Shown piece by piece: positions 15,101 to 27,100 of a stretch of 64,000 nucleotides of DNA. The stretch comes from Octopus sinensis (Eukaryota). Position 1 is the stretch's first letter. Each line of letters begins with the position of its first letter. A program made the position numbers and the translations under genes. Location: contig NC_042998.1 in NCBI RefSeq assembly GCF_006345805.1, forward strand, positions 186,496,001 through 186,560,000. The letters are read 5' to 3'. The notes beneath the pieces were generated by a model. The model had not been told where the DNA came from. It saw nothing but the letters and a program-made list of their open reading frames with translations, and did no database searches.

Positions 15101-18100
15101 CTTCAACTGTAGATTCCCTTACCCTAATTGGTTTCTAATTCCAAAAAAAAAAAATTCAGTATCTATGTCTGACAACAAAACAAAAATCCTAAAATTGACA
15201 GGTGGGCAATGATAAAAAAGGTTGAGACGGGTTACAAAATCAATGCTTAAACGGAATAAGTACAAGAAAATATATGCATCCAATACTACAAAAGAAAGAT
15301 AACTGACAATGGTTTGCAAAACACTTAATACATTCGTTTAACACTTGTAAAGGAAGAGTCATTTTAGCCATCTAAAAACACAAAGACAGTTATAGTCACT
15401 TCCTGTTTATTTCATGAGCTATCCAAACTTTTTTTTATTTTATTACTGCTATTTGGTCAATGGCACAGTTCCATTGCAATGAAATTGTGTTGGTAACCAG
15501 ATCACAGAGGTACAACACTTCGTGAAATAAATGAAATGTGAATATAACTCTTTTCTTGCACGTGTTTTAGATGGTTAAACTGGCTCTTCTGCAATGTAAT
15601 TGCTTCAGTTTCCACACGTGGTTTCAAAAAAAGGCACTTGCCTAAAAACAGTTTTAGAAGATCATCAATATTTCCACCAGCATTCATACTAATTAGAACA
15701 TTAAAGTAGTCATCTTTTTATATCTACAAACCAAACAGTAACTCTACAGATATTGTTGCTGCTAGACTTAAAATCCAACTGCATTGATTGATATTAAAGG
15801 AAAACTTTAAACTTCTAATGAAGTAAGAAAATGTCATTACTAAAATATGTAATTTCTTCAACAATATACAGTGTTTGATATACAATAACTACTTGAATTC
15901 AAATAGATAGAATAGAATAATAAAAATACTTCATAAAAAAAAAGAAAAGACTAATGGACTTTCAGACTTTAAATGTTAATTACTATTGACATAAAATTAC
16001 CTAAATTCAGACAATTCAATAATGGTGAATTCTCCACCAATCTTGAAGATGAGCAGTCAGTTGTTAGACCAACTGAATTCCTATAGTGAAATTTACACAT
16101 AAGTGGCTGAATATTCAACAGATACATGTACCCTTAATGCGATTCTCAGGCCAAATCAGCAGGACAAAAGGTTGGATCTTAGAATACAGGTAATATCCAT
16201 AGAGAAAGAGAGAAATGACCCCAATACTGGATTGGTATTTTCTCAACCACAAAAGAAATAAATACAATGAAGGTAAAATTCAGTTTGGCAGGATTTAAAT
16301 TCAGACCATAAAGAGGTGCAACAACTAGCACAAGGCATCCTAACTGATGCTCTTATGATTCTGCCAATTTGCTGCCTTCGATTCAGCAACAGCATAAATA
16401 AAATATCAAATAAGTATCCTGTGTCACCTGACCAACCTGACTTACATCTACTAAATTATCAAACCATAAGCAGATATATTAAAAATCTAAACTTTGTAAA
16501 TGAGTAATTCTATTGCTGAGACAATTGGCAAAATAGTGAAGTGTACACAATTAACAAGGAATCAACAGCTGGTAGCAAAACTTTACAGTTATTAAGGAAA
16601 AGAAAATAAGTTTTTAAACTTATTCTTAAAATATTTCAATTTTATTTGATGATTTTTTTTTTCTATTCAACTCTTTAATTGTATTTCTCACTGCCTGCTT
16701 TTGCCTAACATGCCATTTCTTTTTGCAATTATATTTCTATTCCATTTTTGAGTGAAATAAGAATATGGAAACCATTGAATACCTATTCCAATAAAACTCT
16801 CTAAAAGGTATATTCTAGCTAAAGGTATTAAGCAGATATACTTTTTCACTATTATAAAGGTTAAACTAGATAATGTTGAGAGATCATAACTGCTTTTTCA
16901 CTTTTTTTATAAAAAAAAAAAAGAAAAAAAAAGAAACATGCAATTCTAAATATACAAAAGTAATCGAAACATGGCATAATTCTAGCATTCATGAATGATG
17001 AAGGCTTAGAAACAAGATATAATACAAAGTGTCCCATAACACATGCTGACTTAACTGGCAACATGAACCATTTAACATGTACAACGTATAATTATAGCTA
17101 TGTATAATATATAATTGCATTCCATACAATTAGAATTTGTTGTATTACAGCATTATTAATTACCAACATGAACAGATAGTGTTATTGTAGCAAACACATC
17201 TTAATGCAAGGAAACTAGCAATCAGAATCATCTTTACGCACCGATAAATGTTACTTGCAGAATTAAATAATTTGCAGAAACATACAATTTCCATAACAAG
17301 CAGCTCCACAAGAATATTAAGGAAACTGGCTGAATAAGTGCCTGAAGCAATCTGAGAATCATCAGAATTTTAATTCTGTAGTATTAGAAGAGTTATTACA
17401 TCAGGAACTACAAATAACTTTGCTCATTCTATTATGCTTTCCCCCTTGTAGACTTGATTGTTTAACCCTTTAGAGTTCGCATTATTCTGCCACAATTAAT
17501 GTCTTTTCATCCACATTGTTTTGAACTAATCATGCATCATCTTGTAGCTATGAGATTTTGATGAGGTAACTATTAATTTTTAAAACAACATTGTAGGGTT
17601 GGTGTGAGAGACCAGATCTGGCCAGTTTGAAAATAAAACAGGCAGAATACTTTTGGCCGGATATGGCCGGTTTAAATGCTAAAGGGTTAAACAAAACTAC
17701 TCAATATAAGCCAGCCAATATAGTGGCCATAATTGGAGTGCTACAAAGCCTATATTGTTCCTCACTAAAACTATGTTCCATGAAAAATGTGTATCACTTA
17801 ACTCCCAACACCTCTCTCCACCCTTAGAAATAAAAACAAAAACATTTTGATAAACTGGTAAATACCAAAAGTTTTTTTTGCTTTTGTTAAAGAATAATTT
17901 CATGCCATAACATTTTAAAATTTAATACATGTTACTAATTTACCATTTTATTGAAATGTCAAATTAAGTATGTGCAATGATTTAATATTTAAGTTTTATT
18001 TTCTGAAATTCTAATTGTAATGGCTTGCAAAAAATTATCTTTCAATTTATTTTGCATAACTTATCAGGCAACCTATACATAAAATGGGACAAATTGTATA

Positions 18101-24100: not shown

Positions 24101-27100
24101 GACACAACAAACAATACATTAAACCACAGCAAAAACAAATCTTTAAAAAAAAAAAAAAAATGACAATTGTATTTCGTAGCAGCTCTCAAAGTTGTATTTC
24201 ACCAATAAATAAATAAAAAAATCTATATTGCACATTTTTAAGATAAATATTGATATTTTAAGAGTTCAGTAACATTATAGCTTAGGAAAGTAAGCAGTGA
24301 AAAATAAGGAAATACTAATGATAACTACTAAATCACATGAACTGTTATTTTTGTCAATATTACTTTTGAGAAAGGCGGCAAATGCCTAGTGGCATTTCAT
24401 CTGTCCTTACAGGCCGAGTTCAAATCCTGCCAAGCTCAGCTTTGCCTTTCATCCTTTCAGGGTCAATGAAATAAGTCCCCATTATGCACTGGGGTCAATG
24501 TAATTGACAAGACCCACCCCCACCTCACAATTTCAGGCCTTGTCCCTAAAGTAGAAAGGATTATTACTTTTGAGAAAGAAGGCAAGTTGGCAGAATTGTT
24601 AACATGACAGGCAAATGCTTAGTGCCATTTCATTCATCCTTCCATCCAGAGTTCAAATTCTGCTGTGGTCAACTTGGCCTTTCATTCTTTCTGGGTCAAT
24701 GAAATAAGTACCAGGGTCAATGTAATCAACTAGCTCCCTTCCTAAAATTTCAGGCCCTGTGCCTATCTATAATAGAAAGGATTATTATTTTTGAGAATAT
24801 CACTTGTGTGCACACACACACACACACACACACAATGCCCATTCAGTAAAATTAAATACTATTTCAGTAGCAAAATTTAAACTCAATAGTTTTAACAAGT
24901 TTGACTTCTTTACAAAAAACAATATTTCACTATTCAATAAGATGCTGCCTTTTAAGAGATCCTAATTAGCAAGTAGTTTTATAGCTTCTACTTTCAAATT
25001 TAGAGAGAAAAAAAAAAAACAAAAACAAATATAACCTATAACCTTAATTTTAGTTTCCTTTAGCTTCATTTTCACAAAGTTCTTTATATCTAAATAAAAG
25101 ATTTTGGTGGAATCAACATTTCGAGGCCATAAAATACAAAAGGATTAACTAAATATTAAAAAAAAAAAAAAAAAAAATACAAAAAGCAATCAGAGAAAGA
25201 ATAGAAAAAAGGGCCAGTTTAGTTGCAACTGCTCACCGAACATACCGAACTATGGAAATTGGACATCGATGATCGATTGTTAGCAGCTCGTGATGAGGCT
25301 GCTACGTAGGCCAAATACTGAATGACCTTTTTTGTATTTTCTGTTTTACCAGCGCCAGATTCTCCTCTGCAATAGAAGAAAAATGTAAATGGTTCATTTA
25401 GCATAAGATATATTAGCTCAGCTAGAATTTTTAAAGATCAACATTCTCTCGTTCACAGTCCATAAGAATGAAATTGCAATTCTAATAATGATTCTATATT
25501 GGCAGGTGGAAATTATAATGGCTATTCAATAGTTTGATTATATTTTGTTATCATCACTTTATAGATTTCCTGTTCGATACACAATTACTTTTTCTATTAT
25601 TGTTTTCATTCTAAGATTATTTTAAAACAGTTCACAATTTAACATGGTTTGGAGGATTCTGCAACTTCAGATCTGCTCCAATTGGATACCTGCTTTAAGC
25701 CATTCAAGAAATGAGAATGATTATTTATATTTCAGTAGGTAAAGAAACTGTAATAAACAACTATGTCCATGAAAAACACCACAGTACTTTCCAGTTGATC
25801 CAAAGGAATTTCATTTCCCAATCCCAGGAGATATAAATTAATCAAAGAAAAGAGACATGAGAAACTAGAAAGTGAGTCAATGAGGCAGATATACAATGAT
25901 ATGATAGAAATATTTTTTTGTAATGCAGACATAAAAACTATTAAGAGGAGAGACAGACGGCATCAAAGATGAATTAAACAAATAAAAAATAAATTTTAAA
26001 AAATGGACAGCCAGACTTGAGAAGAAAATGGAAGTAAATATGGTAGTGGTATGAGAGAAGGAAAAGACATGGCAAAAACAAAAGAAGGCAAATTTGGGGC
26101 TGGTACAAAACAAGGGGTAGGTACACAAGGAGGTAATTGTGGGACAGGTACAAGAGAAAGTAAATGTGGGACAGGTACAAGAGAAAGTAATTGTGGGACA
26201 GGTTCAAGAGAAAGTAATTGTGGGACAGGTACAAGAGAAAGTAATTATGGGACAGGTACAAGGGATGGCAAATGTGAAGCAAATACAAGACAAGGTACAT
26301 TTGAAGCAGGTGCAAGAGAAGACAAATTCAAAGCAATGTGTGTGTTATCAAGATGGTAACTGTGAAATCTAGGGCAGGATGGTAAGTTGATGAAAGTAAT
26401 AGGAAAGTTAAGTTGTTTACAAGTATGGAAGGTGATACCAATACAGTCATTACTGTAACAACTATATAGTTCTAGGGTGCAATATGTCCAACAAGCAGAG
26501 GTTGGCATAGTTGAATCCATCCCAGTTCTCATTGCCTCTGCATTATATTCTGAAGTCTCCAAAAGGGGCAGAAATAGTCAAGTAAAAGGTGAGGTTTCAG
26601 TAAGCAGAAAATTGTTAGTGTAGAATATGATAGTCAAAAGAGCATTTTAGAGTCAAGAGACCACCATCATGAGAGATGAGAGTACAGAGGGACTTATTGT
26701 CTGTAATGGAGAGGAGCTGGGAAGAGGCAAGATAAGAAGTTGAAGAGTGGAGGGTGTGATTGATGATATGCATGCAAGATGGAAAGACTGCAACTGAAAA
26801 TGAGAATGGTTTGTCCAAGAATTTAGAGAGAAATTTGGTGGAGCATTTTCAGATAGAGATGGTAGGATGATCAAAGTTGATGAGTTTTATGCTGTGAGGA
26901 TGAAGAGAAAGAAGAGGGGCTAGTGACAAGATTTGTTAGTTGCTAAGGAATTGGGTAGATTCAGAAGGCAACTGACAAAAGAATAGGGAACTCGGGAGAA
27001 TTTCAGCAAGATTCAACTCAGATCACTACACTATCACAGCACCACTTTTTGTTGGCATGCTTGAAGACAAACTCATGTCGACTTTGAAGGTGGTGGAGCA

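What the first reader, a model, noticed from the sequence alone, without database searches (positions are those of the whole stretch)
15123..25246. Combinatorial splicing module at motor loop 1 of a non-muscle myosin II (tandem donors plus two microexons, up to 8 loop variants)
Seen: the 13.4-kb phase-0 intron between ...NFHSS and GELENQ... offers three frame-preserving options: +VCS (alternative donor), +SKELNL (18 nt, 19221-19204) and +KPIR (12 nt, 15134-15123). Established: loop 1 (25/50-kDa junction) lies near the nucleotide pocket. Spliced inserts there (vertebrate NMII-B B1, NMII-C C1, smooth-muscle SM-B 7 aa, Drosophila zipper) occur in tissue-specific isoforms, and some change ADP release or motility. 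Inference: one invertebrate gene may tune motor kinetics combinatorially (2x2x2) in place of the vertebrate paralogs. Exons this small are easily missed by annotation.
Basis: partly seen in the sequence, partly recalled or inferred. Interest (0 to 1): 0.75.

Follow-up and report, generated by a model that had tools for sequence, protein, structure and literature searches.

The report
Optional loop-1 exons, octopus non-muscle myosin
The octopus non-muscle myosin gene splices either a 6- or a 16-amino-acid optional piece, or neither, into a loop beside the motor's ATP pocket, which likely retunes motor speed; this is a known trick already in automated annotations, and the proposed eight-way combination was not seen.

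Summary
All four splice signals are where stated, but the 2x2x2 module is not supported. SKELNL (19221-19204) is real: it is spliced in contigs of 4 of 5 informative runs, annotated in three Octopus species, and matched by a 6-residue insert at the same junction in other molluscs, an annelid, a nemertean and flatworms. No octopus record or displayed junction joins the two; one cuttlefish record does. VCS appears in 1 of 15 listed octopus records and in 0 of 7 donor junctions seen. KPIR appears in 0 of 315 protein records and no displayed junction, and scores at chance level. A (T)GCATG cluster around the two exons suggests Rbfox control (inferred). This is a new member of the known loop-1 insert kind (vertebrate B1, C1, SM-B). 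The scan's earlier notes showed no such finding. Side lead: a second optional insert right after switch II.

The parts
25246..25366 (-). Constitutive P-loop exon (GESGAGKT...NFHSS); main donor GT at 25245
   Evidence: donor used in all 7 upstream junctions seen
25237..25245 (-). 9-nt extension to a second donor (+VCS); looks like a 9-nt tandem repeat of GTTCGGT; minor at best
   Evidence: 1 of 15 listed Octopus records (P0129); not in displayed junctions; 1 of 28 donors has such a twin
19260..19277 (-). Two TGCATG (Rbfox-type) motifs upstream of the 18-nt exon
   Evidence: function inferred
19204..19221 (-). 18-nt cassette microexon, SKELNL
   Evidence: spliced in X13, X5, X12, X9; annotated in O. 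sinensis, O. vulgaris, O. bimaculoides; homologous insert across Spiralia
19068..19203 (-). 136-nt intron between the two real exons, with TGCATG at 19112 and GCATG at 19092
19020..19067 (-).
   Evidence: joints with CT..AC ends to 25246 (X1, X13, X9) and 11868 (X1, X13); loose ends in X9, X12, X13; 16-aa decapod ortholog
15123..15134 (-). 12-nt KPIR candidate; unsupported, probably a chance pseudo-exon
11776..11868 (-). Constitutive exon GELENQ...SSRF (loop-1 end to switch I)
3011..49264 (-). Span of the ten constitutive myosin exons in the window (aa 121-494 of P0124); the gene continues beyond both ends

Best explanation
The loop-1 intron of this octopus non-muscle myosin II gene holds two real optional exons 136 nt apart (18 nt, SKELNL; 48 nt, [16 protein letters not shown]) that are spliced in singly or skipped, likely under Rbfox-type control, and the longer loops are predicted to speed ADP release and sliding. 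Shown: three junction forms (none, +6, +16) from the donor at 25246; annotation in three Octopus species; conservation of both exons in cuttlefish and of a 6-residue insert in four spiralian phyla; a (T)GCATG cluster. Inferred: mostly either/or use in octopus; Rbfox bound in the 136-nt intron promoting the upstream exon and, with the exonic site, silencing the downstream one; sample- or tissue-dependent choice; the kinetic effect. VCS is a rare tandem-donor product; KPIR is probably not an exon.
For: Run X13 holds all three arms into exon 11868; joints to and from the 48-nt exon have CT..AC ends. Of 15 listed Octopus records (22 in the cluster): 4 none, 5 SKELNL, 5 16-aa, 1 VCS, 0 combined. 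Cuttlefish has TKELNL and a 16-aa exon, 5 of 16 residues identical, same length and KK end. 120 of 288 full-length records hold a six-residue x[KRNQ][DEN][ILVF]N[LIV] motif in loop 1 (records, not species); Owenia has it with and without. Organism C differs at two synonymous positions of SKELNL. 19000-19500 is the top bin of 128 for sense GCATG (5); Poisson p 2.8e-5, 0.006 after x213 bins. The insert aligns with the QGPSFSY insert of chicken MYH11 (7mf3, 6xe9; absent in 9fu2). NM2C1 loop-1 insert speeds ADP release 3-8-fold (PMC3122181, passages); MYH10 N30 depends on UGCAUG (PMC3082911, passages). Long contigs run through the 48-nt exon in X1 but through SKELNL in X5 and X12, a hint of sample-dependent choice.
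Against: Only Logan contigs were laid (6 of 23 listed runs; X10 had no exon cover); they drop rare variants, give no tissue label or inclusion level, and many rows were hidden (207 joints and 1763 loose ends; 38 loose ends). One cuttlefish record (CAE1280279.1) and Babylonia, Littorina, scallop and insect records combine two exons, so exclusivity is not strict. The motif was noticed before it was counted; TGCATG alone gives 0.066 after correction; two sites lie upstream of SKELNL, which does not fit simple activation; motif conservation was not tested; the Rbfox family search found nothing and was uninformative. Loop length predicts ADP release poorly across myosins (R = 0.14, PMC7259954 passages). 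One synonymous change is A-to-G and could be RNA editing.
Confidence: 0.75

Rival explanations
1. One reading: VCS x SKELNL x KPIR combine freely to give up to 8 loop-1 variants.
For: All signals exist; KPIR's sites score as well as the real exons; VCS is annotated once; two-exon combinations occur in other molluscs and insects; contigs can hide rare forms.
Against: KPIR in 0 of 315 records and no displayed junction; intronic contigs cross it at ordinary intron depth (X5 20.3 against 22.6; X12); chance gives about 1-3 such candidates per intron of this size; no GCATG within 150 nt; the model omits the 48-nt exon.
Confidence: 0.06
2. The two real exons are independent cassettes (2x2, with rare VCS), the double form simply being uncommon or restricted to unsampled tissue.
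For: The 136-nt intron has a consensus donor, a CTAAC at 19102 and an AG, so nothing bars joining; the cuttlefish record with both.
Against: 0 of 15 listed Octopus records and no displayed junction join them; in X13, which has both exons, each arm skips the other.
Confidence: 0.3
3. The inserts act mainly through something other than nucleotide kinetics (phosphorylation, partner binding, folded-state stability), or are nearly neutral.
For: All forms keep net charge +2 and the 16-aa exon adds 4 Ser/Thr; second exons differ freely between lineages; kinetic effects in NM2C are called small but significant (PMC3122181).
Against: The 6-aa motif is kept across four phyla and the 16-aa length across coleoids; vertebrate inserts at this site change ADP release or motility (PMC3122181, PMC3535348, PMC7259954).
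Confidence: 0.2

Closest known systems
Vertebrate NM2B B1 (MYH10 exon N30) and NM2C C1 (MYH14) loop-1 inserts (PMC3535348, PMC3122181, PMC3082911, PMC7566000; passages read)
   Same: Short in-frame cassette in loop 1 of a non-muscle myosin II; UGCAUG elements nearby (N30).
   Different: Two adjacent exons of unrelated sequence in one intron; motifs lie within 100 nt, not 1.5 kb downstream; no loop-2 insert among the listed octopus isoforms, whose second variable site follows switch II; tissue pattern and kinetics unknown.
Smooth-muscle MYH11 SM-B 7-aa insert (PDB 7mf3/6xe9 with, 9fu2 without; Sweeney 1998 data as tabulated in PMC7259954)
   Same: Same junction, directly before GELE; similar size to SKELNL.
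   Different: No sequence likeness to SKELNL; different paralog.
RefSeq/ENA isoform models of Octopus and other mollusc NMII (e.g. XP_029648429.1, XP_029648455.1, CAI9717087.1, CAE1280279.1)
   Same: They already contain SKELNL, the 16-aa exon and (once) VCS.
   Different: Automated models only; none has KPIR; no paper discussing them was found in 10 searches.
Type I convergent tissue-specific exons (bioRxiv 10.64898/2026.09.05.749416; passages read; 'myosin' and 'myh' 0 hits in main text, supplements closed)
   Same: Different short exons gained repeatedly at one protein position (ticks, insects, acoel, bivalves, gastropods, cephalopods).
   Different: Here one exon also looks conserved across Spiralia; tissue specificity is not shown.
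Drosophila zipper loop-1 alternative exons (recalled; papers not held)
   Same: Invertebrate non-muscle myosin II gene with loop-1 alternatives; cockroach and whitefly records show this directly.
   Different: Insert sequences unrelated to the spiralian motif.

Membership tests
Non-muscle myosin II heavy chain | Closest solved relatives are MYH9/10/11, ahead of striated myosins | tested here: met
   with P0121: MYH10 2288 bits, MYH11 2236, MYH9 2235, full-length striated 1333 or less; window exons match P0124 exactly
Loop-1 splice insert of myosin II (B1/C1/SM-B kind) | Insert lies at the 25/50-kDa junction before GELE | tested here: met
   alignment with 7mf3, 6xe9, 9fu2
Loop-1 splice insert of myosin II (B1/C1/SM-B kind) | In-frame cassette, both included and skipped | tested here: met
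   X13 has none, +6 and +16; annotation
Loop-1 splice insert of myosin II (B1/C1/SM-B kind) | Tissue- or stage-regulated inclusion | tested here: inconclusive
   Long contigs take different paths in X1 versus X5/X12; runs have no tissue labels and contigs give no levels
Loop-1 splice insert of myosin II (B1/C1/SM-B kind) | Changes ADP release or motility | not testable with these tools
   inferred from PMC3122181, PMC7259954
Rbfox-regulated microexon | (U)GCAUG enriched in flanking introns | tested here: met
   criterion from PMC4317164 passages
Rbfox-regulated microexon | Motifs conserved and Rbfox-dependent | not tested
   no relative's flanks were read base by base; PF12414 search uninformative
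Mutually exclusive exon pair | Never both included | tested here: inconclusive
   0 of 15 listed Octopus records, but 1 cuttlefish record has both
Mutually exclusive exon pair | Exons of similar length and sequence (tandem duplicates), skipping disallowed | tested here: not met
   18 versus 48 nt, no real likeness; both can be skipped
Genuine microexon (KPIR) | Seen in transcripts or conserved | tested here: not met
   absence in contigs is weak evidence

The most novel reading that the evidence does not exclude
An 18-nt loop-1 microexon has been kept in non-muscle myosin II since the spiralian ancestor, works as an Rbfox-switched either/or pair with a lineage-specific neighbour exon, and is combined with a second, apparently undescribed splice site between switch II and the relay helix, giving spiralians a two-site kinetic tuning system (loop 1 x switch II) different from the vertebrate loop 1 x loop 2 system.
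Probability: 0.3. Interest if true: 0.55.

Novelty: new member of a known kind. Interest (0 to 1): 0.32.

Why it matters
It extends a well-studied vertebrate way of tuning myosin II to cephalopods and shows the loop-1 junction as a repeated site of exon gain across bilaterians, with one microexon apparently conserved across Spiralia. It gives three natural loop-1 forms for kinetics and a compact 300-nt region for a splicing minigene. It is modest because the exons are already annotated and the principle is known. The insert after switch II may be the more surprising lead.

Tried and rejected
KPIR as an exon: rejected on chance level, homologs and junctions. One X13 contig departs from the window at 15157, at KPIR's poly-T; a 22-base piece of its loose end has no exact match in G000, so allele, insertion or misjoin cannot be told apart. 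KPIR splice-site conservation in organism C could not be read: those rows were hidden. No RNA holder is on record; RNA status is a guess, though GT-AG joints show spliced molecules. X10 had no cover on the two constitutive exons and was dropped from counts. Search for short cephalopod fragments gave nothing. Rbfox C-terminal family search: nothing, uninformative; SRRM_C gave one weak match (E 3.3e-4), eMIC not checked. Folding 19330-18960 gave -78.9 kcal/mol with no shuffle control, not used. Steric exclusion is unlikely: a CTAAC lies about 100 nt from the upstream donor. No structure prediction was run. Likeness of some mollusc exons (GTPSFTW, QPSFSF) to SM-B was not taken as homology: they lie on opposite sides of the conserved exon in gastropods and bivalves. 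Literature: searches returned 0 papers; some gave vertebrate or general papers only. Six look-ups by recalled id or reference-list id were not held, including the squid NMII, Drosophila NMII and eMIC papers, so 'not in print' is weak; bioRxiv supplements were closed and may list these exons.

Full report
Observation. The - strand carries a myosin gene; ten constitutive exons in the window match P0124 (O. sinensis isoform X1) exactly over aa 121-494. The loop reads SNFHSS as in O. sinensis and O. vulgaris records, not SSFHSS as in O. bimaculoides. The junction region and the two-exon region are single-copy in G000.

Identity and position. P0121 matches human MYH10, MYH9 and MYH11 chains best in the PDB. 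The insertion point, just before GELE, aligns with the QGPSFSY insert of chicken MYH11 (7mf3, 6xe9), absent from 9fu2. This is loop 1.

Annotation. Of 22 members of the Octopus cluster 15 were listed: 4 with no insert, 5 SKELNL, 5 [16 protein letters not shown], 1 VCS, 0 KPIR, 0 with two inserts. The 16-aa insert maps to 19067-19020, 136 nt after SKELNL, with donor gttggc; my own consensus filter missed it too.

Transcripts. I laid 6 of 23 listed runs, all Logan contigs whose RNA status is a guess; X10 had no exon cover. One search shows joints 25246-19067 (X1, X13, X9) and 19020-11868 (X1, X13) with CT..AC ends. One search, on a repeat-poor stretch, shows three arms into exon 11868 in X13: direct from 25246, via SKELNL, via the 48-nt exon; SKELNL also in X5, X12, X9 and the 48-nt exon in X12, X9. 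All 7 upstream junctions seen use donor 25246. No KPIR or VCS junction is among displayed rows (hidden: 207 joints and 1763 loose ends, 38 loose ends), and intronic contigs cross KPIR at intron depth. Contigs show presence, not absence. Organism C has two synonymous differences in SKELNL, one of them A-to-G.

Chance. A matrix trained on 27 donors and 27 acceptors of this gene ranks KPIR 2nd, SKELNL 4th and the 48-nt exon 7th of 339 in-frame candidates; control introns and the antisense strand give 0.6-2.8 KPIR-grade candidates per 13.4 kb. Signals alone therefore cannot establish KPIR. The VCS donor is the only in-frame twin among 28 donors and the sequence shows a 9-nt repeat, so it is plausibly a young, minor donor (inference).

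Conservation. Cuttlefish records have TKELNL, AVTKEEFSNMALFLKK, and once both. A six-residue motif of the SKELNL type occurs in loop 1 of 120 of 288 full-length records (redundant records, search seeded with SKELNL), including chiton, gastropods, bivalves, Owenia (with and without), Tubulanus and flatworms. That it is one orthologous exon is inferred from protein sequences only. Other lineages add their own exons at the junction, and combinations occur in bivalves, gastropods and cockroach; ticks, whitefly and an acoel have with/without pairs of unrelated inserts. KPIR-like text occurs in 0 of 315 records.

Mechanism. Shown: skip, +6 or +16 residues. Inferred: five GCATG (three TGCATG) lie in 19300-19001, the densest bin of the window: two upstream of SKELNL, two between the exons, one inside the 48-nt exon. 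Rbfox binding downstream of an exon enhances inclusion (PMC4317164, passages) and the vertebrate loop-1 exon N30 needs UGCAUG (PMC3082911, passages); repression from upstream or exonic sites is recalled knowledge. The likeliest scheme is that Rbfox in the short intron favours SKELNL and silences the 48-nt exon, giving mostly either/or use. The loop grows from 18 to 24 or 34 residues at constant net charge. In NM2C the loop-1 insert speeds ADP release 3-8-fold and raises sliding speed (PMC3122181, passages); deleting loop 1 of gizzard myosin cuts ADP release from 79 to 13 per s, but length predicts poorly across myosins (PMC7259954, passages). A faster, lower-ADP-affinity motor for the inserted forms is the best guess, untested.

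Comparison. It works like B1/C1/SM-B (PMC3535348, PMC7566000, passages) and meets the tested membership features; it is not a classical duplicated mutually exclusive pair. It also fits type I convergent exon gain (bioRxiv 10.64898/2026.09.05.749416, passages). The listed octopus isoforms have no loop-2 insert; their second variable site is a 15-nt exon, NSDGK, between switch II and the relay helix, 2.2 kb beyond the window, and 71 of 290 records have a longer segment there.

Novelty and verdict. Ten literature searches found no paper on these mollusc exons, but key older papers were not held and bioRxiv supplements were closed. The exons are already in automated annotation and the principle is known: new member of a known kind, interest 0.32. 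The eight-variant module is unlikely (about 0.06).

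Noticed in passing
G000:C2:186493797-186493783 (-), L002; 2.2 kb beyond the window start: 15-nt optional exon NSDGK between switch II (DIAGFEIFK) and the relay helix, with ctgcag/gtaacc sites; annotated in O. sinensis and O. bimaculoides. Unrelated inserts at the same point in clams, scallop, Aplysia, Lymnaea, Littorina and a tapeworm. 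Splicing in reads not tested.
   Followed up: partly
window 11800-16300 (-): Contigs of three organism-A runs differ from the window at about 2% of positions here but are nearly identical over 18000-25000, while X5 matches the window; suggests two divergent haplotypes.
   Followed up: no
window 15157: One X13 contig leaves the reference right at the poly-T before KPIR; its loose end has no exact match in G000.
   Followed up: partly
window 11840-19050: In run X9 the intron part downstream of the cassette exons is covered at depth about 150-200, unique parts upstream near 0-3; slow splicing of the second half or greater divergence upstream.
   Followed up: no
P0247/P0375 versus P0136, P0144, P0148: Acoel optional insert GNAFAQ resembles scallop GGNVFVQ/GSNVFTQ and mussel SNAFVQ; gastropod GTPSFTW resembles chicken QGPSFSY. 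Homology or convergence unresolved.
   Followed up: no
window 61070-62661, 30313-30702, 62008-62250 (+): Decayed reading frames that look like LINE reverse-transcriptase fragments (by eye).
   Followed up: no
window 62807-63364 (+): Open frame resembling a Tc1/mariner transposase fragment (by eye).
   Followed up: no
window 43514-43966 and 45014-46102: A 21-nt tandem repeat (ERGRGDS units) and a ~1.1-kb (TA)-rich microsatellite in the 14-kb intron.
   Followed up: no
L006 (G000:C11337:11167-11301, -): Weak SRRM_C match (E 3.3e-4, over cut-off), a candidate Srrm2/3/4 gene.
   Followed up: no
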